DNA from: Nemertoderma westbladi
Taxonomy: Eukaryota > Animalia > Xenacoelomorpha
Reading direction: 5' to 3'
Length of the DNA: 64,000 nucleotides
NCBI GenBank assembly: GCA_032718475.1
Contig: JAUCBJ010009153.1
Location: forward strand, 62,484-126,483
Shown: positions 12,479 to 62,465 of the stretch, in pieces
Position numbering within the stretch: the stretch's first letter is position 1
Layout: every line of letters starts with the position of its first letter
The notes under the pieces: generated by a model
Databases searched by the model: none
What the model was told of the DNA's origin: nothing
Seen by the model: only the letters and a program-made list of their open reading frames with translations
Made by a program: the position numbers and the translations under genes

Positions 12479-12486
12479 TAGGCCTG

Positions 12487-13554
12487 ATGGGTGTAGGTTC
12501 TATAGACTGGTTCAAGTCCTACCTGTCAGACAGAGGTCAAACTGTAGTCATTAGCAAATCGCTGTCTACTGTACAAGAGATTACCTGTGGTGTACCGCAA
12601 GGTAGTATATTAGGTCCTCTGCTTTTTGTATGCTATGTAAATGATATGATAAGTAGTATAGATCCCGATTTTAAACTCATTTTATATGCCGACGACAGTG
12701 CTCTTATTTTCTCTCATAAAGATCCTATCCATATTTCCCAAAAGTTAAGTGCAGTTCTAGAATCCTGTAATGAGTGGTTGGTTGATAATAAGCTATCCAT
12801 TCACTACGGTAAAACTGAAAGTATTTTGTTTGGTTCCAAAAGAAAGTTAAAGAAGGTAACTAAGTTTGAAGTCACTAGTAATGGACATAAGATTGAAAAT
12901 AAATAGGAAGTTAAATATTTAGGCGCCACATTAGATAACTGCTTATCAGGAGAAAGTACAGTGAAAAATATTTTCTCGAAAGTTAACAGTAGGCTTAGGT
13001 TTCTATACAGAAATAAAAATAGTTTGAACACCGACTCCCGCAAGTTACTTTGCTCTTCTTTAATACAGTGTCACATGGACTATGCGTGCTCTTCTTGGTA
13101 TGAAGGCTTAACCTAACAGCTTAAATGTAAATTACAAGTAGCTCAGAATAAAGTAGTACGATTTATTAAAGACTACAAACCTAGACACCACCTAACTCCA
13201 GATGACTTTTCTGAATCTGGACTACTTAACTTAGATAGTAGAGTTAAGCAGCTACGCCTTAACCATGTGCATAAAGTGTATAATGGTAAATGTCCCAATT
13301 ACCTAAAACAAAAATTCAACAGAGTACGCGATACACACTCTTACAGTACCAGAGCTAGTGCTTCAAACTTCTACCTCCCGAATTGTAAATCCTTCGAATC
13401 TGATACTTTCTTTTTTAACGGCATAAAAAATTGGAACGCTCTGCCTAATGAAATTAAAAACCTAAATAATCAACATTCTTTTAAATCTGCAGTTAAATCT
13501 CATCTCCGTGTGCAATGTAAAAATAGGTACAATAGTCCTACAGTAAGTTATTAG
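12487..13554 (+). pseudogene. LINE ORF2 C-terminal half (reverse transcriptase), disrupted
   Basis: One reading frame with in-frame stops TAG 12904-12906 and TAA 13114-13116. Endonuclease and N-terminal RT are absent. Confidence 0.9.
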
Positions 13555-13742
13555 TTTATTAATTATTTACTATTTATACTGTAATTACGTTTTTAATAAA
13601 TTGTTCTGTACATTACATCTTTATCGTTGAGTCGGGCATTGTCACGCTCTCGGTAAAGTTGTACATGTACATAGTGTAATTACGTTTTATATTCGTTTAG
13701 GTTAGCGTAGTGTAATATTGTATTTGTAACCAAGTAACATAA

Positions 13743-13786
13743 AGGACCCCCTTGGAAATAAGCTGCAAAGCTTTAGGGGTAATCCT
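13743..13786 (+). other. LINE 3'-terminal stem-loop (probable RT recognition element)
   Basis: AGGACCCC...AAGC-TGCAAA-GCTT...GGGGTAATCCT can fold back. Such 3' stem-loops are typical of CR1/L2-group elements. Repeated at about 33404-33447. Confidence 0.6.
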
Positions 13787-13889
13787 ATATGTTATGTTGG
13801 ACAATACCTTTATACCGGTACATTGTTTGGTGTATTTGTTATTGTTTTTACATAATGTATAAATAAATCTATAAAATAAATCTATCTAT

Positions 13890-26134: not shown

Positions 26135-26142
26135 TAGGCCTG

Positions 26143-27210
26143 ATGGGTGTAGGTTCTATAGACTGGTTCAAGTCCTACCTGTCAGACAGAGGTCAAACTG
26201 TAGTCATTAGCAAATCGCTGTCTACTGTACAAGAGATTACCTGTGGTGTACCGCAAGGTAGTATATTAGGTCCTCTGCTTTTTGTATGCTATGTAAATGA
26301 TATGATAAGTAGTATAGATCCCGATTTTATACTCATTTTATATGCCGACGACAGTGCTCTTATTTTCTCTCATAAAGATCCTATCCATATTTCCCAAAAG
26401 TTAAGTGCAGTTCTAGAATCCTGTAATGAGTGGTTGGTTGATAATAAGCTATCCATTCACTACGGTAAAACTGAAAGTATTTTGTTTGGTTCCAAAAGAA
26501 AGTTAAAGAAGGTAACTAAGTTTGAAGTCACTAGTAATGGACATAAGATTGAAAATAAATAGGAAGTTAAATATTTAGGCGCCACATTAGATAACTGCTT
26601 ATCAGGAGAAAGTACAGTGAAAAATATTTTCTCGAAAGTTAACAGTAGGCTTAGGTTTCTATACAGAAATAAAAATAGTTTGAACACCGACTCCCGCAAG
26701 TTACTTTGCTCTTCTTTAATACAGTGTCACATGGACTATGCGTGCTCTTCTTGGTATGAAGGCTTAACCAAACAGCTTAAATGTAAATTACAAGTAGCTC
26801 AGAATAAAGTAGTACGATTTATTAAAGACTACAAACCTAGACACCACCTAACTCCAGATGACTTTTCTGAATCTGGACTACTTAACTTAGATAGTAGAGT
26901 TAAGCAGCTACGCCTTAACCATGTGCATAAAGTGTATAATGGTAAATGTCCCAATTACCTAAAACAAAAATTCAACAGAGTACGCGATACACACTCTTAC
27001 AGTACCAGAGCTAGTGCTTCAAACTTCTACCTCCCGAATTGTAAATCCTTCGAATCTGATACTTTCTTTTTTAACGGCATAAAAAATTGGAACGCTCTGC
27101 CTAATGAAATTAAAAACCTAAATAATCAACATTCTTTTAAATCTGCAGTTAAATCTCATCTCCGTGTGCAATGTAAAAATAGGTACAATAGTCCTACAGT
27201 AAGTTATTAG
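26143..27210 (+). pseudogene. LINE ORF2 C-terminal half (reverse transcriptase), disrupted
   Basis: Shares the TAG stop (26560-26562) with copy 1, but has AAA at 26770 where copy 1 has TAA. Confidence 0.9.
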
Positions 27211-27386
27211 TTTATTAATTATTTACTATTTATACTGTAATTACGTTTTTAATAAATTGTTCTGTACATTACATCTTTATCGTTGAGTCGGGCATTGTCA
27301 CGCTCTCGGTAAAGTTGTACATGTACATAGTGTAATTACGTTTTATATTCGTTTAGGTTAGCGTAGTGTAATATTGTATTTGTAAC

Positions 27387-30300
27387 CGAGAGAAAGCCGC
27401 CCCAATATTAGATTATTACAACAACATATCCATTGGGTAAGAAAGTGGAGGAGAGCCAGCCCGTCTCTTAATTTTTTACTTTATATTACGCGATCAATTT
27501 TCACTCATCTCGTCATGAACCCAACATGTATGTAACCTTTTGTTAAATTTGTTGGCTATGCGTTTGAGGTTGTTTGGGCGGAGTGTGGTAGGCCTACACT
27601 TTTCATACTTAAATATTTTGGTTGTGAAATGTTACAGGGCATAGCGATCTGAGATATTTCATTTATATTTTATTATGAGAGGAAGAAGAACATACAACGT
27701 TATTTACTATGTAACAAAATAATTGTTTTCGGGTTTAACTTGGAAGCCTCCCCAAATAGTTGATATACAATTATATTTAAAATTATTTCCATGGTCATGG
27801 TCATTCACCCGTCTTTAGTTAGAAATTTGTTTGCATGAAAGACAGTTTAGTTTAGTTTTTACTGATTTATTATCTCTTATCTGACTGGGGTAATAATAAA
27901 GGATAGGATAAATGGAAGCAAAGTGTGACAGTAACAAATATTTCCCCGTCACCCTAGCATGTCTTAAGTATATGATATATCAAAGGGGGAAGTTTGGATT
28001 CACTGCATAAATGCAGTTCACCAAACTTCCCCCGAATGCACACTGTAACTTCCCCCTTCCCACAAATATCCACTGTTGAATTAATTTGAAGCGATATAAT
28101 AAGTACAAAATTGTGCGAGTTTTTAATTGTGTGGTCCAATTGTTATTTGATTTCTATTTATTATTTAAAGTGCATTTAATATCACACTGGTTTTTAGAAT
28201 ATTATACTATACAACCTTATGTTTTATTAATTTACCCAATCGAAGCCTCATAAGGGCCGGTTATTTGTACGCATATCCCCTAATGCGCTCAGTAAGGTTC
28301 AAACAACATATTAATATGAAAATAAAGTATCTGCAAAGAAAATAACCCAATACTATATAATTTGACCTTATTAAAAAATTTGCACTTTTGAACACTTATT
28401 TGTACAAGTGCACTTTAGCAGATCGTAATGGTGGCTCTTATTTAACAAACTTATGTTTATCCTTTGCCGATCTACGATAGTGTATGATCAAGTGTCAGTC
28501 GCTAAAAGTGTCAAAAATCCAATTTAATAAATCTGGATTTGCGATTTTGGACCATATTCATGGACATTTTAAGTCACTTTATAGACATAAAAAGTTAAAC
28601 AAATGTTACGATTATAGTTAGAAATCATTCCAAACTACATTTTAATCCAAAAAATAACATTCTACGATGAATAGAACTGGAAATAATAGTGTTTGAAATA
28701 TCGAAAAAATGTTCACTATTTAAGTGCATTTTGCACTAAGTGCACATGCGTCTTTTCCCAAGTTGTATCCTATTTCACACACTACAATCTATTCTCTATC
28801 CAATGAAAAAAGTTTCAGATTAAACGGCCCTCTAGAACCGAAGTTATTTATGTTTAAAAATAGTCACTCGAAAATTTCAAATTCTATTGGTCACATAGTC
28901 TAGTGGTTATCAATCACGTTAATGAAACCTAAGTTCGTGGGTTCGAAACCCAATATTGACCTGACCATTCTTAATTTTTTTGCAAAAAAAATTATTTTTA
29001 CTTTGTCACTAAAATCGCTCTAACTTCGGTTCTGGTGGTCCAAATTCAATAAAATTGGTATATTCTTTGCCGTAATTTTTTTCTTAATCTTTTGAGAAGG
29101 GGTTATTTTTGGCCCCAAAAAAATTAAAAAAAAGGGCCAAAATAACGCGATATTTTTCGACCCTTAAAATTCGTAATTTTAATTATATATGTTAAGATAA
29201 AAGATAGCGGAGTTAATTTGATACTTTTTACAGGTACTTTTGGCGAAATACGCTAAATTATAATGGAATAGCGATTTGTTAAAAAAAAAAATTTTTCGTC
29301 CCTTTTTATAAATATTATATTTCACACGATCGCCTGCCGCTCCAGTTTTATAATACCTCCAGCGCTGTGATTAACGCTGTTAGATAGATAATTTAACGCA
29401 CTATAAGTCTGTGTAAACAAATCTCCCGTAAGTTAAGTAGTTTTCGAGCTAGACGATTTCCCGCGAAGCAAGTTTGAAGCGCAAAATTATAATTTTGGCC
29501 CTCATTTTTTTAATATCATCCTTGGAGCAAAACCGATAGCATATTTGAATTCCCCGTATGGATATTGACTGTATAGAATGTACCTTAACCAACTAAAGTT
29601 AAAAATAAAAAATTATTCGATAAAAACTACTTTACAAATTCTGGCCCTTTTTGGCCCCTATTGCCGACATATTTTTTGTACCCCCATTCGATAGGAACGT
29701 AGCCCCAATGGTCTTCTACGAGTTTCATAAAAGAATTAGTGGATTCCTACCCGCGTTGTCGAATTAAACATTTCAGAAATAAGTTTTCCAAAAAAGACGG
29801 ACAAAAACGTACAAATTTACAGCCCCTTTTTCCACCCGAAATTTTAATAAATATCTTACCCCCATTCGATACGAAGGTAGTACCACTCTTCCCCTTTCCA
29901 ACCGCGTTACTTTCGTCCCCGTACGATTAATATTAGCCGAGTTATAGCCGATCCCGCAAAGTCATTTTGTCCGTTTTTTCAACTTTGACGGACATTTTCG
30001 GAAAAAAGGCGTGGTAATCTTTTTTGAAAAAAAAAACGAATTCACTAATTAATCCCTTCTATCGTATCCCGGCGTCGGCTAAGCAATAACCTAGGGTTTT
30101 TTCGAGCCACTGTAGAGCGCCTTTCAAAAAAATTTTAAAATTGTCGAAAAAATGACGGTTTTTTGTCCGCCGTGTCCGTCGAAGGGTTATATTTCATAAT
30201 GTTAGAGTTGCTAATATCTTAGAATTCCGAGCCGCTCCCCTGGTGAGAAAATAAAAAAATTTGGTCAGTTCCTTCATCGAAAAGTCCCCCAGAATCCCAA

Positions 30301-30411
30301 GTTAACCTATATAGTTAGCGAGGGCCTGCGGCTTTAGGAGCGGCCGCGGTATTCACCTCCCTCATAGCGGCCGCGGCGGTGTTGCGTCAAATGGAGAAAT
30401 ATTTATCCCAC
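27387..30411. mobile_element. Non-coding ~3.0-kb transposon-like unit A (candidate non-autonomous rolling-circle element)
   Basis: Absent from the paralogous LINE copy. Begins CGAG, ends ATATTTATCCCAC followed by CAAG. Homologous to unit B over about 27975-30030 and at the right terminus. No credible ORF. Confidence 0.7.
28889..28961 (+). pseudogene. tRNA-derived cassette (Pol III box A/box B) in unit A
   Basis: 73 nt. GGTCA...TGACC acceptor-like pairing, box A TAGTCTAGTGG, T-arm TGGG-TTCGAAA-CCCA. D and anticodon arms do not pair well. Confidence 0.65.
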
Positions 30412-33391
30412 CAAGGCGGACCCCTCAATAAAGATATACTTAACGAAAGACCACGAGGTAAAGGGAAAAGCGTGCAGGGAGGGGGAAGGATGGGGGTATG
30501 GGTCGAATGAAATGACAAGAGGGGAGACCAACTGGACTCGTTAATTTTATATTACTCGAAATTTTATGTAATATATTTTCGCTCCCAGTGTACACTTGTT
30601 CTATATACCGGTAACCCCTTAATATTAATATATACTACTCAGTCGTTTGTACATAATACGAAGCCTGTAAGTTATAGTCACCGAAACATTTCAGCTCGGA
30701 AATAATAATATATGAATCAAGGATGTCTCTCTTATGATCTACATAGAATAGATATGGTTATTGATACTGTTACATTGTGATAATGGATTCTAGGTTTCTT
30801 TCACTGGTAAATCCGCATAATAGTTGAAGTAATAAAATTTAATTACACAACCATAGTTCGAAGATCAGCATTTTTCATACCAGTCATTGCTTAGAAATTT
30901 TACAGGATAATATTGTTAATCTGACTTAAGTTGTTTAGGTTGAACAAAGTCTACATAGTAAACAACAGGTCCTCCAAAGAGTGTGTCTTTGGTATATTAT
31001 ATCATGAAGGGGGAAGTTAGATTCACTGCATAAATGCAGTTCATCTAACTTCCCCCAAATATCTACTGTTGAATAAAATTGAAGCGATATATTAAGTCCG
31101 AAGAGGTGCGAGTTTTTTAATAAATTGTGTGGTCCATTTGTTATCTGTTCTCTATTTATTGTTTAAAGTTCATTTAAGATCACACTGGTTTTTAGAATAT
31201 TACAACCTTATTTATTATTAATTTAACCAATCGAACCCTTATAAGGATCGGTTATTCGTACACATACTCCTAATGCGCTCAGTAAGATCCAAACAACATA
31301 TTAATATGAAAATAAATTATCTGCAACGAAAAGAACCCAATAATACACCATTTGACCTTATTAAAAAAATTGCACATTTGCACACATATTTGCACAAGTG
31401 CTATTTAACGGATCCTAAATGTGGTTCCTATTTAACACACTTATGTCTATCCTCTACCGATCTGCGATGGTGCATGATCAAGTCTCAGTCACTAAAAGTG
31501 TCAAAAATCCAATTTAATAAATCGCGACATTTGCGATTTTGGACCATATTCATGGACATTTTAAGTCACTTTATAGACATAAAAAGATAAACAAATGTTA
31601 AGATTATAGTTAGAAATCACTCCAAACTACATTTTAACCCAAAAAATAACATTCTAGGATGTATAGAACTTGAAATAATAGTGTTTGAATTATCGAAAAA
31701 ATGTGCACTATTTAAGTGCATTTTGCACTAAGTGCACATGCGTCTTTTCCCAAGTTGTATCCTATTTCACACACTACAATCTATCCTCTATCCAATGAAA
31801 AAAGTTTCAGATCAAACGGCCCAGTAGAACCGAAGTTATTGATGTTTAAAAATAGTCACTCGAAAATTTCAAAATCACTTGGTCACATAGTCTAGTGGTT
31901 ATCAATCACGTTAATGAAACCTAAGTTCGTGGGTACGAAATCCAATATTGGCCATTCTTAATTTTTTGTAAAAAAAATTTTTTTTATTTTTTCACTAAAA
32001 TCGCTCTAACTTCGGTTCTGATGGTCCAAATTCAATAAAATTTGTATATTCTTTGCCGTAATTTTTTTTTCTATCTTTTGAGAGGGGGTCATTTTTGGCC
32101 CCAAAAAAAATTGAAAAAAAGGGCCAAAATTACGCGATATTTTTCGGCCCTTAAAATTCATAATTTTAATTATAAATGTTAAGAAAAAAGATAGCGGAGG
32201 TAATTATCTACATTTTAAATGTACTTTTGGAGCAATACACTAAATTATAATGGAGTAGCGATTTATTAAAAATAAAATTTTTTTTGCCCCTTTTTATAAA
32301 TATTTTATTTCACACGATCGTCTACCGCACCAGTTGTATAATAGCTACGGCGTTGTAACTAACGCTGAAAGATAGATAATTTAACGCTCTATAAGAATGT
32401 TTAAATACGTTTCCCCGACGTTGAGTAGTTTTCGAGCTACACGTGTTCCCGCGCAGCCAGTTTGAAACGCGAAATTTTAATATTGGCCCTCATTTTTTTT
32501 ATATCATTTGCGCAGCAAAACCAATCGAATATTTGGATTGCCCGTATTAATATTAACCTTATAAAATGCACCTTAACCTTCTAGAGTCAAAAATTTAAAA
32601 GTTATTAGTTATAAATCATTTATCAGTTTCTGGCCCTTTTTGGACCCTTTTGCCGACATATTTTTTGTACCCCCATTCGATAGGAATGTAGCCCCTGTGG
32701 TCTGTTACACCTTCCGAAAAGAATTGGCAGATTCCTACTAGCGTTTTCGAATTAAAAATTTCGGAAATATTAATTATATATAAAAGACGGACAAAAACGG
32801 AAAAGTTACGGCCCCTTTTTCCACCCGCAATATTAATAAATATCTTACCCCCATTCGATAAGAATGTAGTACCACTCTTTCCCTATCCACCCGCGTTACT
32901 TTCGTCTCCGTACGATTAATATTGTCCGAGTTATAGCGCATTCCGCAAAGTCATTTTGTCCGTTTTCTCGATTTTGACGGACATTAGCTGGAAAACGATC
33001 GGCTTAATTTTTAAAACAAAAATATGTGAAATCTAATTTTTAAACCCTCTTTCGATTCCGGGCGACGTCTTGTCCGTAGAGGCGAGATTTAATTTTTTTT
33101 ACATAGACCCTAATGGTGAAAAAGACAAAAAAACCAGACAATTGTCCGTCATGTCCGTCAAAACGATAGATTCGCTAAAAGCTCTGAAGAATCTTATTTT
33201 TTTGGCATTACGCGTCCCCCTTCGAAAAATCGAGAAAATCGTACGGCTGGAAATAGGTCGAATGGGGGGGGAACACCGTTTTCGCAGTAACTACGCGTCC
33301 AGTATGTAGACTGCGTCCTTTAGAGGGGCGGCGAATTCACCTCACTCGACGCCGCCCTTACTGAATGTTTTTAAAAGATATTTCTTCCCAC
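30412..33391. mobile_element. Non-coding ~3.0-kb transposon-like unit B (diverged relative of unit A)
   Basis: Begins CAAG, ends ATATTTCTTCCCAC followed by target CAAG. Same order of hairpins, tRNA-like cassette and motifs as unit A. Confidence 0.7.
31881..31953 (+). pseudogene. tRNA-derived cassette in unit B
   Basis: Homologue of 28889-28961 with box B altered (GGTACGAAATCC). Confidence 0.6.
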
Positions 33392-33550
33392 CAAGTAACA
33401 TAAAGGACCCCCTTGGAAATAAGCTGCAAAGCTTTAGGGGTAATCCTATATGTTATGTTGGACAATACCTTTATACCGGTACATTGTTTGGTGTATTTGT
33501 TATTGTTTTTACATAATGTATAAATAAATCTATAAAATAAATCTATCTAT

Positions 33551-45134: not shown

Positions 45135-45660
45135 TGTTAGCTTATCCAATTCCGCTAACACAAACCCATAGAGTGAGCCATAAAGCAATATTGGGAGCAC
45201 GAGGTTGATCACCAATCAACCTCGTGTCAGCCCAGTAAACGGGGACAATAGGCCCCAAAGGAAGCACACAATAGAGGGTCAGGGGCCAAACCCCTAACCC
45301 AAGGAGAACACAGGGAGTGAAGGGAAACACTCCAAAGGGTGCCAACAAGGGTATCAACCAATCAGAGGGGGGAAAGGCATCGATTGAGTAGCAATAAGGC
45401 CACCGTGCAATATAACCAGTAACCTGTAATCATTCATTCAGTTTACTCAGTCAGATCAGTAGGGTGGAACGGGGACTTCTGTCACCGTCCGCTACCGCCA
45501 TCATACTTATATTACCTGTTGTGTTATACTATATATATATCAGACTATTATACCTTATACATATAACCGGACACCAGAACTGTTTCACCTTTCACACAAC
45601 GGCGGGGACGCGTGGATAGAAAACCCAACGGATAAACCGGGATCCGTAGATCCCGTCACA
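45135..45660 (+). repeat. 5' LTR
   Basis: TGTTAGC...CGTCACA. No differences from the 3' LTR seen by eye. Contains a CCAAT box, a TATA-like TATAA near 45411 and an Inr-like TCAGTT near 45438. Confidence 0.95.
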
Positions 45661-45749
45661 GTGACAGAACTAGATCCGCCCAGCTGCCCTGACAGAGATA
45701 GAATAGAGCTACCGTCCTAGCTAGCGACGACCAGCTACTAAAGACGAAG

Positions 45750-48700
45750 ATGAGTCGAGAGAGAGGAACGACACCGCCGCGGACCCCGGACGACGATCTA
45801 ACGATCCGTGAGGCCACGGCGAGACGATACGAACCCACGACGCCGATCGATGCCACGCCGACCACGTCGACGCAGGTTGACGCCACGTCGACAACGAGCG
45901 ACCCGGCGAACCAAGATGTGGGGGGTCGTCTACAACCGGAGAGCGAGTCGAGGGAAGGAGACGAGAAGGGAGGAGAAGAGAAAGACGAGTCGACGCGGAG
46001 CGAGGGTCGACATACCGATGTCACCGGTCAGCCACAGGCCGAGGACGACGGACGGTCCACCGGAACGGCAACGGTGGGGCCGTCGGTACGACGTCGGACC
46101 CGGAGAGACAGAGGAGAGATCGGCGACGAGGACGTCGGGGTTTCTGATCGACTTCGACGGGCCTACAACGCGACCCGGGAACTACTAAAGGAGGCCAAGG
46201 AGGGGGCGAAGGTAGACGAGGTGAGACTGAGGAGACGACTAGGTGAGTCGAACAGGTACCTTGATCACCTAGTGTGTTCTGGGCAGAGAGAACTAGCCGA
46301 GGAGAGGGCGTGGGGAGTTGCCTTCGGACTGTTTGAACTATGGGAATGTGGGGGTATGGAGCCTAGTGTAGTGTACATAGGGCCATACTTAGTCGATGCC
46401 CGGGGAGCAAAATTAGTGGGTTGGAAGAGACCTGAGGAGGGCGAATCCGAGGTTAAACCCAAGGATTCGGTCTCGTCGGTCGGAAGAAGTTCCGGGAAGC
46501 GGGGGAAAGTTGGTAGGACGGAGGGGCGACGGGAGTCTGTCGCAACCGATAAGTCTGCTACATCCTCCGCAAAAGAAAGAAGGGTGCGGGAGAGATATCT
46601 AAAGTGTAAATTAGGAATGGCGGCGGCAGAGCAGGAACAGTTAGAGTGGCAATTGAGGAGTGAAACCACATTATTAGAGTTGGCAAGGGAGGATAGAGAG
46701 AGAGCCGAGGAGCGAAGAGATCGGGAGATGAGAGTAGAGAGCGAGCCGGCGAGCTGGTTTGATATGCTTGCGAGAGAGACGGCCGAGCGAAGTTTACGAG
46801 GGTACAGAGAGAGAGAGATAGAGAAAGAGCGTGACCGGGATGATTTGTGTGCCCGGATAGGGAGGCTTGCGCAATATCAAGCCAAACTTAAACGGCGCCG
46901 ACTAGAACTGGCGCGGTTGGAAATGTCAGAGAGTGAGACCCCACTTACAGGCACCGGGCGAGAGAACCAGAACTGGTGTAGCCGTACGGGCGGGGGGGGT
47001 AGTAGTAGTACGTTAGAGACAGTTAATGTTAATAGTACCGTAGTAAATAACCCTAATCCCTTTATTACAGGAAATATTTTACCCGGTAGTAGTAATTTAA
47101 GTTTAAATTCAAATAATAACATTAATTCAAATATTCAGAATAATTCAAATAATACGAATAATAATTTAAATTTTGAAAATAATAACAATCCTAATTTAAA
47201 TAATTTAAATAATAATCCCGTTTCAAATTCTAATAATTTAATTGATTTAACAAATAATATTGGGAATGGTGCTATTGATATGAGCGTGTCGGACGTGCAT
47301 AACCCGACAGACGGTGGCCTGGTAGGCCACGTAGTTAGTAGGCAGGAAGTGGCAGGGCTGAGCCAACCCGACGGCGGCCTGGTAGGCCACGTAGTTGGTA
47401 GGCAGGAGGTAGCGGGGTTGAGCCAACCCGAGGTGGGCCTGATGGGCCACGCAGTAGTAGAGAGAGAGGCGGGGGTGAATAGACCCAGCCGTAGTAGAGA
47501 CAGTGCGTCGACTAGAGAGGGGTGTAGAGACGAAGTAAGATATAGTGAAGTTAGATGTGGCGAGTGGGGGGGGGGCTACCGGCGCCCCACCACGTAAGAC
47601 TAGTGGCGAGAGAGGGGGGGCAGAGAATGCCCCACAAGAGGGACGCAAAAGTGTAGTAAGAGATAGTGGAGTTAGAAGTGGCGGGTGGGGGGGGGCTACG
47701 GGCACCCCACCGCGAGAAGTTAGTAGAGAGAGAGGGGGGACAGAGAGTGTCCCACAGCCGTCAGCGGATAATGTGCGGGCCGAATCAGGTAAACCGCAAC
47801 AACCGGCGACGGAGAGTAATAGGGGGATTGCGAGTATCCCCAGCGGCGTGCGATCGAGCAGAGAGAGGCAGGTTGACGTCGCGAGAGGGCAGACGAAGCG
47901 TCGAGCCCGACCAGAAGAGAGAAGAAGAACAGTGGAGTTTAACCGGGAGGTCGACGAGAGATCTCACGAGCCGGAATACTACACAGAAAAGAGAAGAAGA
48001 GAAGATAGTAAAAAAGGTGTCGCCACGAATGATAGGAGTGCGAGGACGGATAACGAACCGTCGATAGTAGAGATGGAGTCAGGGAGCCAGTGGGGTCGAA
48101 CTTCGGGAGATTGCCGTCGCCCCGGAGAAACGCACCGCACGCCAAGAGAGGGGTACAAGACGTACCAATACAGAGTCTAGAACAGGAGAGGGGATCGGAG
48201 AGAAGCTTCCCGACGGGATATAGCTGCCGATCGAGAGTGCAGTAGTCGCGGGGAGATTCGAGATTCGCGAAGAATAAACGTCGGTTCGGAAGGGCACATG
48301 CAGACTGCAGGACATACTGTAGGCCTTACTGCACATACTATTATAGGCCATGCTGGGAGAGATAGAGTAGGCGATGGGGTAGCGCGAACGACGGAATTAA
48401 ACCCGGAAGTCGCGGAGTACATACCGGTAGGTAGGCGAGAGGTAGGTAGGCCTATATCGGTACAGCAGCATGACTATAATACACAGGGACATAATATATA
48501 TCCAGGGGAGGGGGGAGTTATTGGAGATAGACGTATGGGCCCCAATGTATTAACATCAACCCCAGCACCAAACATACCGGCCGGGGGGGGACAGGGTGAC
48601 ATTCCCCCATCACAATATCGACAATGTACCCCGATAGGAGCAAGAACATCGAACTCCCTGGACGAGAACAGGTCGTGCGGACAGTCACAACCACACGCGG

Positions 48701-49449
48701 CCGTACAGGGGACTGCTAGTCCACAGTTAGGTGGTAGCAGGACCACACCGTGGCAGGGACAGAAAGAAAATAACACCAAAAATAAACACAATCCCAATAT
48801 ACCCAGTAGGCCGAGTCTAGACAACCAAAACATTAAATCGGTACATATAAACCTAAGCGCGATACGTGAAGGACTATACAGGAAACGCTATAATCCAGGA
48901 TTCCAATGTCAATTACATCGGGACGGAACCCATAAGACCAGGAGTTGCAAGTACTGGCAAGCGTTGCCCAAACGAGATCGTGTAGCCTACACAGACGCAA
49001 ACGGACTATGTCATCGATGTGTGGTAAAAGGACACAGATCCGGAGAGTGTTGGAAAGGGAAAGGATACGAAAGGACTAAACCAGGGGCAGAGAAGCCCAT
49101 TAGCAAACTTAAGGGAGTCGGGAAAGTAGGAGGAGGCGTGTTGCATACACACGCAGGACGGACACAGTGCGAGGGGGCATTGCACGGGCAGACACCGCGT
49201 ATACCGAGGGACGAGCGGGGGTCGTCGAGGGCTCTAATGCCAGCGCACATACGAAGGGGGAGGCCAGCAAAGGTGGCACCGAAGAGAGTGTGGCGAAGAG
49301 TTAGAGGACGTATAGGAGGGCAACAGGAGAGTGCCTACTGGAAGAAGGGGCACCTGAGAGTTTTTAGTCGTCCAAAGTTTTGGACTGAGGGGGGTGGGAA
49401 TGAGGGCGAGACGCCCTTCCCACGCACAAAATATAAAATAATTATTTAA
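45750..49449 (+). pseudogene. gag: Gag-like ORF (~1230 codons) with one frameshift and one in-frame stop
   Basis: ORFs 45750-47597, 47545-48180 and 48298-49449 join if one G is removed from G10 at 47566-47575 and TAG 48178-48180 is read through. Contains PKDSVS plus a coiled coil, and Cys-His knuckles CQLHRDGTHKTRSC and CHRCVVKGHRSGEC with BEL/Pao-like spacing. Confidence 0.75.
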
Positions 49450-49489
49450 TTAAAAATAAGAAAATAATTAAATAATAGAGTAGGTAGAA

Positions 49490-49502
49490 GTTAGGTAGTA
49501 AG

Positions 49503-49543
<41 letters not shown>

Positions 49544-51310
49544 AAGAGGGTACGTAGTACCGTTAGTTAGAGAGTTAGTAGGTACGTAGTACCTAATCAG
49601 AGTTAGAGTTAGTAGGTACGTAGTACCTAGAGTTAGTTAGAGTTAGTAGGTACGTAGTACCTAATCAGAGTTAGAGTTAGTAGGTACGTAGTGCCTAGAG
49701 TTAGAGAGTTAGTAGGTACGTAGTGCCTAGAGTTAGAGAGTTAGTAGGTACGTAGTACCGATAGTTAGAGAGTTAGTAGGTACGTGGTACCTAGTTAGAG
49801 TTAGAGTTAGTAGGTACGTAGTACCTAGAGTTAGTTAGAGAGTCAGTAGGTACGTGGTACCTAGTTAGAGTTAGAGTTAGTAGGTACGTGGTACCTAGTT
49901 AGAGTTAGAGTTAGTAGGTACGTGGTACCTAGTTAGAGTTAGAGTTAGTAGGTACGTGGTACCTAGTTAGAGTTAGAGTTAGTAGGTACGTGGTACCTAG
50001 TTAGAGTTAGAGCTAGAGGGTACGTAGTACCGATAGTTAGAGAGTTAGAGGGTACGTAGTACCAATAGTTAGTTAGAGTTAGTAGGTACGTAGTACCTAG
50101 TTCGAGTTAGAGTTAGAGGGTATGTAGTACCGCTAGTTAGAGTTAGAGTTAGTAGGTACGTAGTACCTAGAGTTAGTTAGAGAGTCAGTAGGTACGTGGT
50201 ACCTAGTTAGAGTTAGAGTTAGTAGGTACGTGGTACCTAGTTAAAGTTAGAGTTAGAGGGTATGTAAGTACCGCTAGTTAGGAAGTAGTAGAGCAGTAGG
50301 GGTTGTGGGCACCGGAAGCGCCACGCAGTTAGACTTAGTAGGGAATGCGCTGAACTTAGTGGGGCACGGGCGTGATGACGTGTTTGATGTAAGAGCAGGG
50401 TATGTTAATTAGGGTGGGTGCCGGGCACAAGAGGTGCCGGGCACAAAAAGAGTTAGTAGTAGAGTTAGTTGAGTTAGTAGTAGAGTTAGTTGAGTTAGTA
50501 GTAGAGTTAGTTGAGTTAGTAGTAGAGTTAGTAGAGTTAGAAGGTGCTGGGCACAAGAGGTGCCGGGCACAAAAAGAGTTAGTAGAGTTAGAAGAGAGTT
50601 AGTAGAGTTAGTAGAGTCAGTAGTAGTTCACATAATTAACGTACCCACTCTGCCGGCACTCAGAGCGTCACGTGTAGGCGATGAGACGTAAAGGGGGAGT
50701 AGAGGAGTAGAGACGGGTACATAGGGTACCAGTGAGTAGAAGAGTAGAGACGGGCACGTAGGGTGCCAGGTAGTAGAGTTAGAGAGTTAGAGATAGAGTA
50801 GAGTAGTAGAGAGGGCACATAGGGTGCCAGGTAGTAAGTTAGAGAGGTAGTAGTGTAGTAGAGAGGGCACATAGGGTGCCAGGTAGTAGAGTAGAGCAGA
50901 GGGGGCACATAGGGTGCCAGGTAGTAGAGCTAGAGAGGTAGCTGAGTAGTAGAGGGCACATAGGGTGCCAGATAGTAGAATGGTTGTGGGCACCGCAAGC
51001 GCCACGTACTTAGAAGAGTGGAGTAGAGTTAGTAGAGCTAGTTAGTAGAGTTAGCAGAGCTAGTGGAGTAGAGTTAGTAGAGCTAGTTAGCGGACTTGGT
51101 AGACTCGGAGGAGTCAAGTAGAGCTAGTAGAAGTAGAAAGTTAGTAGGAGTTAGTTAGACTTAGTACAGAGTTTGAGTCAGTAGAAAGTTAGAGGCCCTC
51201 AGTTAGAGCTAGAAGTAGTAAGAGTTAGTAGTTAGCAGAGTTAGTTAGATAGTTAGAGTTAGTAAGCAGTAGGTAGATAGTATGATAGCACAGGGGTAGC
51301 ATTAGAGATT
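49490..51310. repeat. Purine-rich tandem/low-complexity repeats inside the LTR element
   Basis: (TTAG)n, then ~30-bp units AGTTAGTAGGTACGT(A/G)GTACCTAG, then GAGTTAGTAGTA runs, then GGGCACATAGGGTGCCAGGTAGTAGAG units. Confidence 0.9.
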
Positions 51311-51672
51311 AAAGCCTTAGGGAGTGACAAGAGAGTGGAGAGGTAATAGTGCGGAGTGCGAAGAGAGCGTGGGCGCAATTCAAGTGTGGGGGAGGAGAAG
51401 TGAGAGGAAGAGTGTGGGACGAGGAAGTCCGGGAGTATGCGAGAGTTGGAGTAGAATGGTGAGAGTGTTGGGGAAACAAAAATTGTGTGAGAGAAGCGCA
51501 CGATCGGCCCGACACGAGACGCCAGAGGGTAGTGACATCATACCCATAGGGAGCGGCCTGGAAAGCCGACTCCGAAAAAATATACCCACCCCACACCCGA
51601 TAATAGATCGGGATCCAGCGGAATTGTAGCGCACTTGAGTTGGATGCTATCTTCTCACCGGGAAGATAGCAT

Positions 51673-51681
51673 GGGGGGGAG
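51673..51681 (+). other. Polypurine tract
   Basis: GGGGGGGAG immediately 5' of the 3' LTR. Confidence 0.75.
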
Positions 51682-52207
51682 TGTTAGCTTATCCAATTCC
51701 GCTAACACAAACCCATAGAGTGAGCCATAAAGCAATATTGGGAGCACGAGGTTGATCACCAATCAACCTCGTGTCAGCCCAGTAAACGGGGACAATAGGC
51801 CCCAAAGGAAGCACACAATAGAGGGTCAGGGGCCAAACCCCTAACCCAAGGAGAACACAGGGAGTGAAGGGAAACACTCCAAAGGGTGCCAACAAGGGTA
51901 TCAACCAATCAGAGGGGGGAAAGGCATCGATTGAGTAGCAATAAGGCCACCGTGCAATATAACCAGTAACCTGTAATCATTCATTCAGTTTACTCAGTCA
52001 GATCAGTAGGGTGGAACGGGGACTTCTGTCACCGTCCGCTACCGCCATCATACTTATATTACCTGTTGTGTTATACTATATATATATCAGACTATTATAC
52101 CTTATACATATAACCGGACACCAGAACTGTTTCACCTTTCACACAACGGCGGGGACGCGTGGATAGAAAACCCAACGGATAAACCGGGATCCGTAGATCC
52201 CGTCACA
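51682..52207 (+). repeat. 3' LTR
   Basis: Direct repeat of 45135-45660 (offset 6547). Confidence 0.95.
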
Positions 52208-58734: not shown

Positions 58735-58871
58735 TGATGAATTATTTCACTATAAGGTAGCATTTGTAGTTTAACTTTAACGTAAAAACTTTCGAAAATC
58801 CGACGTATTTTGATTAAGTTACAGTAATGTAATATGCCTATTCATATTTGTACACATAAAACCCTTAGGTA

Positions 58872-58947
58872 CTCTCGTGGCGTAGTGGTCAGATGGTTAA
58901 GGCGTTGGTTACATTACATAGGTTACGAGGTCGAATCCCGGTCGGGA
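58872..58947 (+). pseudogene. tRNA-derived sequence (SINE head or tRNA pseudogene)
   Basis: Box A TGGCGTAGTGG and box B-like GGTCGAATCCC with tRNA-like spacing. The cloverleaf is degenerate. Confidence 0.55.
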
Positions 58948-60572
58948 AATTTGTATTTTGGGGCCATTTATTTTCGTTTGGTGCTAATTGGTAGGCCAAT
59001 GAGAAGCGTACAGCGTAGCGAATGATGAGCCAGGCCAATCATAGGGTGTAAAAGCTTTTGTGGGATAACTGATTCGTTTGCCTTGTTGGCCAGTTCCCCC
59101 CCAGTCGCTAAGAATACTCTCAAAGTGATCTACAGCTAAAAATAGTGCAAGTTACCAGCTTATTGGCTGATTTGCTGTACGCAGGCATCTGGGCTCTGTT
59201 TAATCGGCCAACAAGCCTAGGGAGGTTGCGTCATAGCCTTGTTTTTGTATCTCCCAATAGAATTTGAGTTAGCCTTGATTTTGACCTATCACAGGCTACT
59301 GAACTGAAATTTGCCTATCTCACTGCTCTTTCTCTGTGTTGAACGGGAGCTTCGTGGAATAAGGGAGTTGGTATCCTCGTATAGAGCAGTAGTCACGAGT
59401 TTTTCAAAGCCACGAAAGAACGGCTTTTTAGTGTTTTGTGCTTTCTGCTTTTTAGCTCAACACTAGTAGGTTTAATTATAAGGACATATATCCTTTAACT
59501 GGCGACAGCAACTGCTGCCACACGGCTTTTAATAACTGCTGAAACTGCTAAAATTACCTGCTCAATCAATACTGTATACTGCTATTTGTTGTCAGTTATT
59601 CATTATATTTGTTGATGAATTATTATATTGGAATAACGAGAAATAACCCCGACACCCAATATTCTTGATATACCGAAGGTAAGAGAGAAAGGTTACCAAT
59701 AACGATTGTGACTTATGTTAAAGTGGTTTGAAGTGAATCTAATGTTATTTGATAGACCCTACATGAGTCAGTCTGTGTTCCTTCTATACGTGACTAAAAT
59801 CAGTGAAGATTGGCAGATTAGTGTGCAGTATTGTGCAGCATTGCGTATGAGTGAGTCTGTTAAAGAAGCATTTCCTAAAGAATGTGCCATATATGTGAAA
59901 TATAATTAAGCCATATCGTTGTGAGTAGTTTAAGTCATAACTCTGTTTATATAGATAAAGCGCCACGTCCTAAAGGAACTGTTAATATTCCCGAAGGTGA
60001 ATAATATTGTCAGAGATTATATAATACTGTCAGTCGAATAATACATTAGGCTTACATAGCAATAAAATTAAACCGTCGAACCCAATCTCCCGGGAATATC
60101 CAGCGGGTGAATGGTCGCGCACAGATTGGTTTCGACTAGTGTAGTGAATCAAATACTTGTCATAGGCTAAAAAGCGATTTAATATCTAGAAGACATCTTA
60201 ATTTGGCGGGTTAAACTGCCAAAGGTCTGAAAGCGCGAACATTAAAGGATATAGCTTCTTTGTTGCAGTAAGCAATAAAGTTGAAAGTACCGGTCAACCG
60301 GTAAACCTGAATCGGTACATCTGTAGGTCAGTAGGCCCAACCGCTAGAACCGGTACTTCTGTAGGTCCGTAGGCCTAACTGTCCTAACCGGTACCTCCCG
60401 TATAAGTACATTAGTATTATTCGATTTGATTGTTGTATACCGGTAGGTCTTAGTATTTAATCAGGGAACGGCCGCCCTGGTTTTTTATTGAGATTTTACT
60501 TATTTCTGTCAAGTTTTATTTGTTTGTAGGCCAGTATTGAACAGAAGGCGTGTAAGCCTGATCAGATTGTAC

Positions 60573-61148
60573 AGACAATTTGTAGGCTGAGCTGTTGTCT
60601 GATTGCTGTTAAGTCCGAACGGATTGCCGCGTGTGTAGATCATCTGTCCGATTAAGTACGTTTAGGCAGTAGGGGCAGCGAACGCTGTAAGGTAAACCCC
60701 CAACTAAAGAATAAGTCGCACTACTGGGTTAGAGCGCATACTCCCTAATCATTTCAGAGTCTGCATGTCCTGTAGTTTATTTAGGCTTGAGAGTAGTCTG
60801 CCATCGTTTAGTCTGTACTTTGTTTGTGTAAGTCTGTACGGGTAGCGTATAATTTTATTTAGATAATTTGTAGGCTGGATAGTTGTCTGGCTGTTATTAG
60901 GTCTGAGCGGATTGCCGCGTGTGTAGATCATCTGTCCGATTAAGTACGGTTAGGCAGTAGGGGCAGCGAACGCTGTAAGGTAAACCCCCAACTAAAGAAT
61001 AAGTCGCACTACTGGGTTAGAGCGCATACTCCCTAATCATTTCGGAGTCTGCATATACCGTAGTTTGTTTAGGCTTGATAGTAGTCTGTCAGTGTTCGGT
61101 CTGTATTTTGTTTGAGTAGTTTGTACGCGTAGCGTAATATTTATTATT
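60573..61148. repeat. Two tandem copies of a 288-bp unit
   Basis: 60573-60860 versus 60861-~61148, constant offset 288. Confidence 0.9.
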
Positions 61149-62465
61149 CAGAGTTTATGCGATTATCCGCAACATTCATTCCCCAAGTTTGTTCCTACAG
61201 TAATTGTGTTTGTTATACATACCGCTATAGTTAAATTAACCCCGGTACTACACGGGCTGCTCGGCGTAGGTAAAGACTGGTGATTTTGTGCATCGGTCAC
61301 TCCAGCAGATGCCGTGGTTCTTTTAGCTGTTCAAGTATATTTAACTACTGATTATCTGTTGTACAAGTACTCGTACCTAATTTAGGGTTTAGTGTACAGT
61401 ACTTTCCGAAGTAATTATTGTAGACATTATATCTGTGTTGTAAAGTGGTTGATAGGCACATTCGATTAGCTCTATTAACTTCTAGGTAGGAACACTCCGT
61501 GATACATAACGTAGAACCTATAGCGATACGGCTATAGGTCGTCAGGCGGTGGTATTTTCCTATCTAGACAACGCAGTGTATTTACTACTACTTATTATTT
61601 CAAATACCGTAGTACCCTGTCCGTTGTAATAACCGGTTATCTAACCCTTTGTTAGGCTGGTTTGTAGACTTCTTGTAAAATTACCCTAAAAATTCGTATT
61701 TTGTGTTTTTTTGTAAATTTTTGTGTTTATTTAGAGATTGTAATCTCACCCGAATTGTACGTAATTTGTAGTATTAAGTAACTTAGGTAAATTAGTATTA
61801 TTTGTTTTAGTGTCCTATAAGTAACACTTCATTGAAAGCGCACCGCTTTGTGTAGTGATTACTCCCCAGAAATAATAACATTTATTTCAAACATTGACTA
61901 AACCCATTAAAACGGGTATATATATATTATAAATCAAATCTAACGATTTATAAATAGTAGGCCTACCATATAACAATTAGGTCTCCATATCAGTTGGACT
62001 ACTGCTCAAATAACGGTAATAAAGTAAGTAAAGTAACAAAGTAACCCTAAAGTAACAGAAATTCAATTATTTGAAATAATTGATATACCGGTATTTACGA
62101 TAGGCCTATTATCTTTATTTCTATAAATCTAGGCTGAAATTATACCGGTACTTGTAATTAATTCTATTTCAGAATTATATATCCTACAAACTGTAAGCTG
62201 TATACCGGTATTCCAGATAGGCCTATTATATATTTATATATATTGGTGCTAAAATTATACCGGTATTCTGTGATAAACCTAGTCTGTAATAATACTTATA
62301 TACTTATATATACTATAAGTATACCGGTATTCTAATATATTATATATACCACGCTGCATTGAGTAGCAATACTGGTAATTAATTATTAGGCTAACAGTTA
62401 ATACTGAGTTACTAGACTTGCTCAGACTGTAATACAGCAGTAGACATTCAACGGTATACATAGTC

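What the first reader, a model, noticed from the sequence alone, without database searches (positions are those of the whole stretch)
27387..33391. Tandem non-coding insertion with IS91-like rolling-circle junctions in a eukaryotic genome
Seen: the empty site in the sister LINE copy is TGTAAC|CAAG (13725-13734). Here it reads TGTAAC|CGAG...TCCCAC|CAAG...TCCCAC|CAAG. On the minus strand each unit starts GTGGGA right after CTTG and ends in CTTG or CTCG, with no TIRs. Established, from memory and worth verifying: bacterial IS91-family elements insert next to CTTG/GTTC without TSD and their ter ends are CTCG/CTTG/GTTC. Canonical Helitrons (A|TC...CTRR|T) and Helentrons (TT targets) do not fit these ends. 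Inference: a non-autonomous member of an HUH-endonuclease (IS91- or Replitron-like) transposon family targeting ACCAAG. The breakpoint is ambiguous within a shared ACC, so a 3-bp TSD or a tyrosine-recombinase core remain alternatives.
Basis: partly seen in the sequence, partly recalled or inferred. Interest (0 to 1): 0.85.

Follow-up and report, generated by a model that had tools for sequence, protein, structure and literature searches.

The report
Self-stacking, target-specific animal DNA transposon
Two related 3-kb gene-less DNA elements sit head to tail at one six-base site; other copies sit at similar sites, so this is likely a jumping-gene family that inserts at a fixed short target, probably with a borrowed Crypton-type recombinase rather than the bacterial-style rolling-circle enzyme first proposed, though no enzyme gene was found.

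Summary
The insertion is real. It is 6,005 bp, and removing it restores the sister site (2 mismatches in 1,411). It is two subfamilies, not one duplicated unit: 86% alike over a 2-kb core, 44-57% at the ends, with no terminal inverted repeats and no protein gene. Contigs from three samples show many copies, recurrent head-to-tail junctions and foreign flanks. Of 10 right-flank contigs listed, 7 keep CAAG, 1 reads ACC-TAG and 2 leave inside ACC. All 4 other left junctions seen keep AC(C). The signature is a six-base motif carried on the element's left end (ACCRAG) plus a near-identical target on the right (about AYCWAG). That is the donor/target pattern described for Cryptons and Starships, and it resembles Replitron repeats. 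The IS91 motif match is real but not specific, and the would-be ter end has no palindrome. A stem-loop near the right end keeps its pairing with different stem bases, which keeps a single-strand (HUH) mechanism alive. No mobilising gene was found, so the family is unassigned: Crypton-type 0.45, HUH 0.30. The scan holds no look-alike sequence; it has noted Crypton-like elements of a similar kind in other genomes.

The parts
27385..30409 (+). Unit 1: 3,025-bp non-coding element (register with the six-base motif on its left end)
   Evidence: multicopy in runs X1-X4
30410..33389 (+). Unit 2: 2,980-bp non-coding element of a second subfamily
   Evidence: left ends with foreign flanks
27385..27390 (+). 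Left-end motif of unit 1, ACCGAG (inferred donor copy)
   Evidence: an X4 contig begins exactly at 27385 (table 8, record 27)
30410..30415 (+). ACCAAG: left-end motif of unit 2, and right-hand target of unit 1
   Evidence: contigs with foreign upstream flank start at 30410, contigs with foreign downstream flank leave at 30410-30416
33390..33395 (+). ACCAAG: target in the LINE 3' UTR
   Evidence: same six bases at the empty site
13729..13734 (+). Empty target in the duplicated LINE fragment
30340..30374 (.). Subterminal stem-loop of unit 1: 8-bp GC stem round a 13-base core, 35 nt from the right end
   Evidence: (19 of 500 shuffles hold such a stem)
33326..33357 (.). Subterminal stem-loop of unit 2: a different 8-bp GC stem round the same core (12 of 13 bases), 32 nt from the right end
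   Evidence: z -2.9 and -3.3; 9 of 500 shuffles
27985..28033 (.). Long internal hairpin of unit 1, at the start of the conserved core
   Evidence: -19.8 kcal/mol, z -7.1, 0 of 200 shuffles
31009..31056 (.). Long internal hairpin of unit 2 (23-nt arms); both arms differ from unit 1 in matching places
   Evidence: -20.5 kcal/mol, z -8.7, 0 of 200 shuffles
27960..30005 (+). Conserved non-coding core of unit 1 (86% to 30984-32995; 2 of 15 indels are multiples of three)
30984..32995 (+). Conserved non-coding core of unit 2
30164..30181 (+). Two TGTCCG motifs 9 bases apart, 236-245 nt from the right end; also at 33143-33160 in unit 2; possible protein-binding repeats (inferred)
26135..27384 (+). Host of the insertion: 5'-truncated LINE (RT fragment, 3' UTR), continuing at 33390-33550; duplicate at 12479-13889
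   Evidence: (RVT_1, E 1.7e-15)

Best explanation
The insert is two gene-less copies of one repeat family, from two subfamilies, that likely move by site-specific recombination at a six-base core, probably catalysed in trans by a Crypton-type tyrosine recombinase that was not found here. Shown: each unit begins with ACCRAG, ends in TCCC and is followed by a near-copy of the same motif; there are no TIRs and no gene; copies with foreign flanks and head-to-tail junctions occur in three samples. Inferred: one motif copy belongs to the element and the other is the genomic target (about AYCWAG). An excised circle would carry one core at its joined ends and recombine with a target, crossing over at or just left of the first A-C, so that nothing is duplicated. 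Because the unit-2 left end is itself a perfect target, later copies would land directly in front of earlier ones. That gives the mixed unit1-unit2 tandem here by two events, and the recurrent tandems elsewhere. The subterminal stem-loop and the 9-base-spaced motifs are predicted recognition elements; their role is untested.
For: Right junctions vary where a target would: of 10 contigs in the 5 junction rows table 7, 7 run on through CAAG (30415/30416), 1 reads ACC then TAG, and 2 leave after 30410 (consensus TCTAG); X3 record 18 leaves after 30411 with 539 foreign letters. Left junctions keep the motif in 4 of 4 other cases seen: a locus with 400 foreign letters starting at 30410 (X1 record 6, X2 record 15, X3 record 23, probably one locus), X2 row 30434, and X2 record 9 and X4 record 27. 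This one-fixed, one-degenerate pattern is what PMC9977147 reports for de novo CryptonF-1_cRei insertions (ends CACCG, targets CAYCG, clean excision, copy gain; passages) and PMC10104507 for Starships (passages). CryptonF repeats listed in PMC3212892 supplement 1 (TTGRTA; TAACTA/TACCTA) share the AYCWA core on one strand. Cryptons and abundant non-autonomous derivatives are known in animals; Replitrons were not reported from animals in a search of all NCBI eukaryote assemblies of June 2021. No TIR or ATIR.
Against: No recombinase gene was found; no genome was available to look for one. PMC3212892 found no terminal repeats in animal CryptonA and CryptonI, so this would be atypical for animal Cryptons. 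The internal copy of the joined ends that earlier scan notes report for animal CryptonA minis is absent here (25 and 26 of 30 shuffles score as well). The right-end stem keeps its pairing while changing sequence, which suits single-strand recognition, and head-to-tail arrays are a recognised sign of rolling-circle elements (PMC5876387 passage). The flank data are thin: 19 of 46 loose-end rows shown, consensus letters of 1-3 contigs each, loci may repeat across runs, and the contigs that leave inside ACC could be decayed copies. A motif likeness of five or six bases is weak for any family.
Confidence: 0.45

Rival explanations
1. A single-strand HUH transposon. The minus strand is nicked at or just after CTWG(RT), copied or peeled off to a second such site at the other end, and joined to a target with the same letters. 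The partner would be Replitron-like, IS605-like, IS91-like or an unusual Helitron2-group enzyme. The IS91 register proposed by the first reader is one sub-case (about 0.10 of the 0.30).
For: IS91 target CTTG and ter cut CTCG are exactly the letters at the window's junctions. Replitrons have short direct terminal repeats, one right-end palindrome, oriented insertion and mostly no TSD. IS605-type elements insert 3' of a 4-5 base target. The one-end stem-loop keeps an 8-bp stem with different bases in 2 of 2 units, against at most 4 bp in 18 of 18 chance loci with the same core. Tandem junctions are deep: X3 contigs at 572.6, 411.5 and 376.2 and X1 at 431.8, against 10-50 for contigs with unique flanks.
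Against: No hairpin in the first 106 nt of either left end, where IS91 ter and IS605 ends have one. Right junctions that leave inside ACC do not fit a fixed GT start. A mixed unit1-unit2 junction cannot come from concatemeric copying of one template. No ATIR of 12-16 bp and no A|T or T|T target, so not HLE1 or HLE2 as described. None of 30 Replitron consensus starts seen (of 36) begins with this motif or its complement; none is from an animal.
Confidence: 0.3
2. A non-autonomous eukaryotic IS607-type element moved by a serine recombinase that crosses over at a central GG (minus strand CTTGGT, CTCGGT).
For: IS607-family elements have no TIR or TSD, mostly end in GG and carry repeat units at their ends, and eukaryotic members exist (PMC13565253 passages). 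The shared core here contains GG on the minus strand, and 9-base-spaced repeats are conserved in both units.
Against: The 2 contigs with consensus TCTAG lack the GG. The repeats lie about 240 nt inside, not at the ends (that IS607 repeats sit close to the ends is recalled). Conservation extends over six bases, not two. No serine recombinase or Fanzor remnant in the 4 ORFs scanned.
Confidence: 0.1
3. A cut-and-paste (DDE) element with degenerate ends and a 3-bp target-site duplication ACC.
For: ACC stands on both sides of both units; the AT-rich core with short repeated motifs is common in non-autonomous DNA transposons (general knowledge).
Against: No TIR above chance. It does not explain why the three bases after ACC are RAG inside the left end and WAG in the flank. 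Left junctions keep ACC while some right junctions do not.
Confidence: 0.07

Closest known systems
Crypton DNA transposons: CryptonF-1_cRei (PMC9977147, passages), CryptonF and CryptonS (PMC3212892, passages and supplement 1)
   Same: No TIR; 5-6 base direct repeat with one copy on the element and one from a near-identical target; a pyrimidine-degenerate AYC core; non-autonomous derivatives; high copy number.
   Different: No recombinase gene seen; animal CryptonA and CryptonI were reported without terminal repeats; 3-kb non-autonomous length (listed non-autonomous Cryptons are 353-1,656 bp); recurrent head-to-tail stacking; the exact motif ACCRAG/AYCWAG is not in the list seen.
IS91 family (IS91, IS801, IS1294; PMC13181058, passages)
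   Same: Target-side CTTG and far-end CTCG/CTTG on the minus strand; no TSD; oriented insertion; a palindrome near the target-adjacent end.
   Different: No palindrome at the would-be ter end; bases on both sides of the proposed nick are conserved; right flank varies as CTAG rather than GTTC; no Y2 transposase; no DNA similarity to 72,556 plasmid records; eukaryotic host.
Replitrons (PMC10288648; parts 1-5 of 7, Dataset S1, 30 of 36 consensus ends)
   Same: Short direct repeats at the ends, one subterminal palindrome, 2-4 kb size range, oriented target-specific insertion.
   Different: Not reported in animals; no matching terminal motif among those seen; no Rep gene; no fuzzy ends or variable TSD seen at this locus.
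Helitrons HLE1 and HLE2 (Helitron2, Helentron, FoHeli; PMC11417382, PMC5148889, passages)
   Same: Subterminal GC-rich hairpin about 30 nt from one end; no TSD; tandem arrays.
   Different: No TC...CTRR ends with A|T target, no 12-16 bp asymmetric inverted repeats, no T|T target.
IS607 and its eukaryotic members (PMC13565253, PMC3627910, passages)
   Same: No TIR or TSD; GG in the junction core; short direct repeats inside.
   Different: Six-base conservation; GG absent at some right junctions; no serine recombinase or Fanzor.

Membership tests
Crypton | Encodes, or shares ends with an element that encodes, a tyrosine recombinase | not testable with these tools
   No ORF above 122 aa; no genome held; pattern scans gave only chance loci
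Crypton | No TIR or long terminal repeat | tested here: met
Crypton | 4-6 bp direct repeat, one copy from the element, one from a near-identical target | tested here: met
   Window junctions and empty site; 4 of 4 other left junctions keep AC(C); 8 of 10 right contigs keep ACC-WAG, 2 read TCTAG; few loci
Crypton | Precise excision or circular intermediate | tested here: inconclusive
   Joined ends exist in DNA but cannot be told from tandems; the empty sister may be pre-insertion or excised
Animal CryptonA minis as described in earlier scan notes | Internal copy of the joined ends | tested here: not met
   26 of 30 and 25 of 30 shuffles score as high
IS91 | Y2 HUH transposase | not testable with these tools
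   No gene in either unit; partner unknown
IS91 | Tetranucleotide target (CTTG/GTTC) next to the ori end, no TSD | tested here: inconclusive
   CTTG at 2 of 2 window junctions and 7 of 10 contigs; CTAG in 3; 2 leave inside the would-be ori end
IS91 | ter end cut at CTCG/GTTC | tested here: met
   CTCG in unit 1, CTTG in unit 2 (for the rule)
IS91 | Subterminal palindrome next to the ter cleavage site | tested here: not met
   Left 106 nt fold no better than shuffles on either strand (z 0.48, 0.69, -0.02, 0.27); no 8-bp stem
Replitron | Y1 Rep (HUQ) transposase | not testable with these tools
   No gene; partner unknown
Replitron | Short direct repeats at or near the termini, with a one-end palindrome | tested here: met
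   feature described
Helitron HLE1 | 5' TC, 3' hairpin plus CTRR, insertion between A and T | tested here: not met
   No register on either strand gives these ends (rule)
Helitron HLE2 / Helentron | Asymmetric inverted repeats of 12-16 bp and T|T target | tested here: not met
   rule
IS200/IS605 | Hairpins at both ends | tested here: not met
   Only the right end folds; rule
IS607-type | Ends in GG, serine recombinase | tested here: inconclusive
   GG in the core at 3 of 3 window junctions; absent in the TCTAG consensus; no gene
DDE TIR transposons | Terminal inverted repeats and TSD | tested here: not met

The most novel reading that the evidence does not exclude
An undescribed single-strand (HUH) transposon family of animals, neither HLE1 nor HLE2, that nicks at the same CTTG-type motif as bacterial IS91, recognises a one-end stem-loop by shape, and stacks into head-to-tail arrays because its own end is a target. 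It would be a non-Helitron HUH transposon in an animal, which the papers searched here do not report.
Probability: 0.25. Interest if true: 0.8.

Novelty: new variant of a known kind. Interest (0 to 1): 0.42.

Why it matters
Two groups of eukaryotic HUH transposons are described, Helitrons and Replitrons, and the second is not reported from animals (PMC10288648). The Crypton mechanism has not been shown experimentally (PMC13565253 passage), and animal Cryptons were described without terminal repeats. This family has many copies, a defined six-base donor/target signature and two subfamilies whose ends diverged around a few kept motifs. It therefore gives sharp handles: the ends can fish out the autonomous partner from the assembly in one search. 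A recombinase partner would give an animal Crypton-type element with a mapped crossover core and candidate binding motifs. An HUH partner would be a new class for animals. Until the partner is found it is an unclassified non-autonomous repeat, of which invertebrate genomes hold many.

Tried and rejected
No whole genome is held for this window, so copies could be seen only through Logan contigs of four runs (X1 and X2 are one sample, one of the samples may be the window's own; none is RNA). Depth is not a copy number; the one rough figure is a core contig at depth 9,542 in X3 against 10-50 for X3 contigs with unique flanks, which points to a few hundred copies.

Pattern scans for the right-end motif gave 5 and 2 viral loci, 8 metagenome loci and 3 prokaryote loci. 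All 18 lack the stem (at most 4 bp) and none has BLAST similarity to the insert: chance. Exact core words gave 0 in prokaryote genomes and 0 in viral contigs. BLASTN of the insert gave no match in plasmids or phages. Rfam gave one hit at E 0.27, far below its gathering score; no tRNA; promoter-like sites are fewer than in shuffles (16 vs 23.5) and that bacterial scan is not meaningful here.

A coding role for the core was rejected: 2 of 15 indels between the units are multiples of three; 4 of the insert's ORFs were scanned, with 0 Pfam hits. An asymmetric inverted repeat (8 bp in unit 1) is not above chance. An internal copy of the joined ends is absent. The idea that the core is a separate nested element was set aside because the ends are homologous too (global identity 0.435 and 0.50 against shuffle maxima 0.416 and 0.421 in 15 shuffles) and of the same length.

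Dating the insertion against the duplication was inconclusive. About 20 near-fixed differences from other copies are listed over the 6 kb and 4 over 1.2 kb of LINE (40 of 368 rows shown), more than the 0.14% between the duplicates would give; but a copy can inherit rare alleles from its donor, so this does not show excision from the sister.

The protein search with the LINE fragment gave 67 RT relatives without taxon names; that the host is an animal rests on earlier, unchecked scan notes on the same genome. Nine literature searches found no description of an element with these ends or of an IS91-type element in animals; Repbase and Dfam could not be searched, and the family may be catalogued there.


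Full report
What is there. The stretch lies in the 3' UTR of a 5'-truncated LINE (RT fragment, RVT_1 E 1.7e-15) that sits in a 40-bp satellite. The insert is 6,005 bp; taking it out gives the sister site with 2 mismatches in 1,411 bases. The sister is not an independent LINE: it is the same fragment duplicated with its flanks (99.86% over 2,865 bases). The insert is two units of 3,025 and 2,980 bp. They are 86% identical over a 2-kb core and 44-57% in the end bins, which is still above shuffled controls. They are two subfamilies of one family. Neither has a TIR or asymmetric inverted repeat above chance. ORFs reach 122 aa at most; 0 of 4 scanned hit Pfam; 2 of 15 core indels keep frame. That the host is an animal comes from earlier scan notes on this genome, which I did not check.

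Kept features. The right ends share little but a 13-base core (12 of 13 identical) and the last TCCC. In both units the core is closed by a perfect 8-bp GC stem, 35 and 32 nt from the end, and the two stems differ in sequence. Such a stem occurs in 19 and 9 of 500 shuffles of the last 100 bases, and in 0 of 18 chance loci that hold the same core (at most 4 bp). For unit 1 the folding energy of the whole 106-nt end is not better than shuffles (z -0.15 and -0.27); for unit 2 it is (z -2.9 and -3.3). The left 106 nt do not fold on either strand. A long hairpin opens the core about 600 nt from the left end (z -7.1 and -8.7). Two TGTCCG motifs 9 bases apart lie 236-246 nt from the right end in both units.

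Other copies. No genome was held. Five public DNA runs of one organism code hold the stretch or part of it; four were laid, three samples, all as contigs. The units are covered in 30 of 30 bins in each run, by thousands of short contigs in three of them. I then laid the 151 bases round the middle junction. Summed depth falls from about 50,000 at 30407-30412 to 13,000 and then 3,000 in X1, and several contigs stop at 30412, so paths branch after ACC. Nineteen of 46 loose-end rows were shown. Five rows (10 contigs) are right flanks at the junction: 7 contigs run through CAAG to 30415 or 30416, 1 reads TAG after ACC (X3 record 17, 833 foreign letters), 2 leave after 30410 with consensus TCTAG. 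X3 record 18 leaves after 30411 with 539 foreign letters and may be one of those two. On the left, a locus with 400 foreign letters starts at 30410 in three runs (probably one locus), and a second shows foreign letters and then ACCAAGG (X2 row 30434). For unit 1, an X2 contig starts at 27383 after 17 foreign letters and an X4 contig begins exactly at 27385 (records 9 and 27). So 4 of 4 other left junctions keep AC(C). Loci may repeat between runs and the consensus letters rest on 1-3 contigs, so this is a small sample. Head-to-tail junctions recur: contigs that start at TCCC and run into the unit-2 left end have depths 572.6, 411.5 and 376.2 in X3 and 431.8 in X1, against 10-50 for contigs with unique flanks; unit-2 right ends joined to unit-2 left ends are seen in X2 and X4.

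Reading the junctions. The simplest summary is: free flank, ACCRAG, element, TCCC, about AYCWAG, free flank. One copy of a six-base motif is fixed and the other is slightly degenerate. The unit-2 left end is then itself a perfect target. This explains the mixed tandem by two events (unit 2 into the LINE's ACCAAG and unit 1 in front of unit 2, or a ready-made pair moved as one) and the recurrent tandems. Copying one template round a circle cannot join two subfamilies.

Which enzyme. IS91: the recalled rules hold (target CTTG, terIS cut at CTCG, no TSD; PMC13181058, passages), and the window's letters match them. But terIS has a palindrome next to the cut, which is absent here; the target is four bases on one side, which does not ask for the kept AC on the left; and the contigs that leave inside ACC do not fit a fixed ori end. 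Cryptons: 4-6 bp direct repeats, one thought to be the target (PMC3212892, passages; PMC13465315, passages; PMC13565253, passages). De novo CryptonF-1_cRei insertions end in CACCG, target CAYCG, excise cleanly and still gain copies (PMC9977147, passages); Starships behave alike (PMC10104507, passages). Listed CryptonF repeats include TTGRTA and TAACTA/TACCTA (supplement 1 read whole), which share AYCWA with this target. So the motif likeness to IS91 is not specific. Against: the same paper found no terminal repeats in animal Cryptons, and the internal copy of the joined ends noted by earlier scan reports for animal CryptonA minis is absent. Replitrons have short direct repeats, one palindrome and oriented insertion, but are reported from green algae, non-seed plants, stramenopiles, cryptophytes and haptophytes only (PMC10288648, parts 1-5 of 7; Dataset S1); none of 30 of 36 consensus starts seen matches. 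HLE1 and HLE2 ends fail (PMC11417382 and PMC5148889, passages). Tandem arrays and a subterminal hairpin are marks of rolling-circle elements (PMC5876387, passages), and a stem that changes sequence but keeps pairing suits single-strand recognition; this keeps HUH at 0.30. IS607-type elements end in GG without TIR or TSD (PMC3627910, passages) and remain a minor rival. Passages of PMC5753468 and PMC12130899 added only that non-autonomous Cryptons are known in fish and are hard to classify without the autonomous element.

Search for a partner. Motif and word scans of viral, metagenome and prokaryote collections and BLASTN against plasmids and phages gave chance loci or nothing. The scan's own index holds no look-alike sequence. 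Nine literature searches found no description of these ends; Repbase and Dfam were not searchable, so prior cataloguing is open.

Verdict. It works like a Crypton in its junctions and like an HUH element in its one-end hairpin and tandems. It cannot be filed as a member of either without the enzyme. It fails a tested feature of IS91 (ter palindrome), HLE1, HLE2, IS605 and TIR transposons. I commit to recombination at a six-base core by a Crypton-type enzyme at 0.45, HUH at 0.30 (IS91 register about 0.10), IS607-type 0.10, DDE 0.07; the rest is unassigned. Interest 0.42: the class is unresolved but one search of the assembly would settle it, and the HUH outcome would deserve 0.8.

Noticed in passing
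window 116-58734: The window is mostly a 40-bp satellite with higher-order duplication; the LINE fragment and several kb of satellite on both sides are duplicated at about 99.8-99.9% (12479-13889 vs 26135-33550), and a third LINE 3' end opens the window at 1-115.
   Followed up: partly
window 45135-52207: An LTR element with identical 525-bp LTRs and a 5-bp duplication AGTAC, inserted in the satellite; two long ORFs (one weak zinc-knuckle hit, E 0.07), no pol hit, and internal 34-bp tandem repeats: likely a young non-autonomous LTR retrotransposon.
   Followed up: partly
window 27387-33397 joint, run X2 (table 5c): One LINE copy (depth 181) has a short palindromic duplication exactly at this target site instead of the insert. 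It could be a repair footprint after cutting at the site or a local template switch; a single observation.
   Followed up: no
window 28006-28046: Other copies carry tandem duplications of a 37-43 base piece beside the long internal hairpin (tables 5 and 5c); unit 1 has a 30-base extra there relative to unit 2.
   Followed up: no
window 27385-33389: Identity between the units is a mosaic: 93-96% at 28523-29120, 80-90% elsewhere in the core, 44-57% at the ends, which suggests repeated exchange of the interior between subfamilies. In run X4 depth falls from the left end to the right, and one contig leaves after 27965, so elements with the same left end and another interior exist.
   Followed up: partly
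window 58735-64000: A further repeat begins at the satellite's end, with a 288-bp tandem pair at 60572-61152 and an ORF with an alanine/glutamate-rich repeat running off the window; perhaps another LTR element.
   Followed up: no
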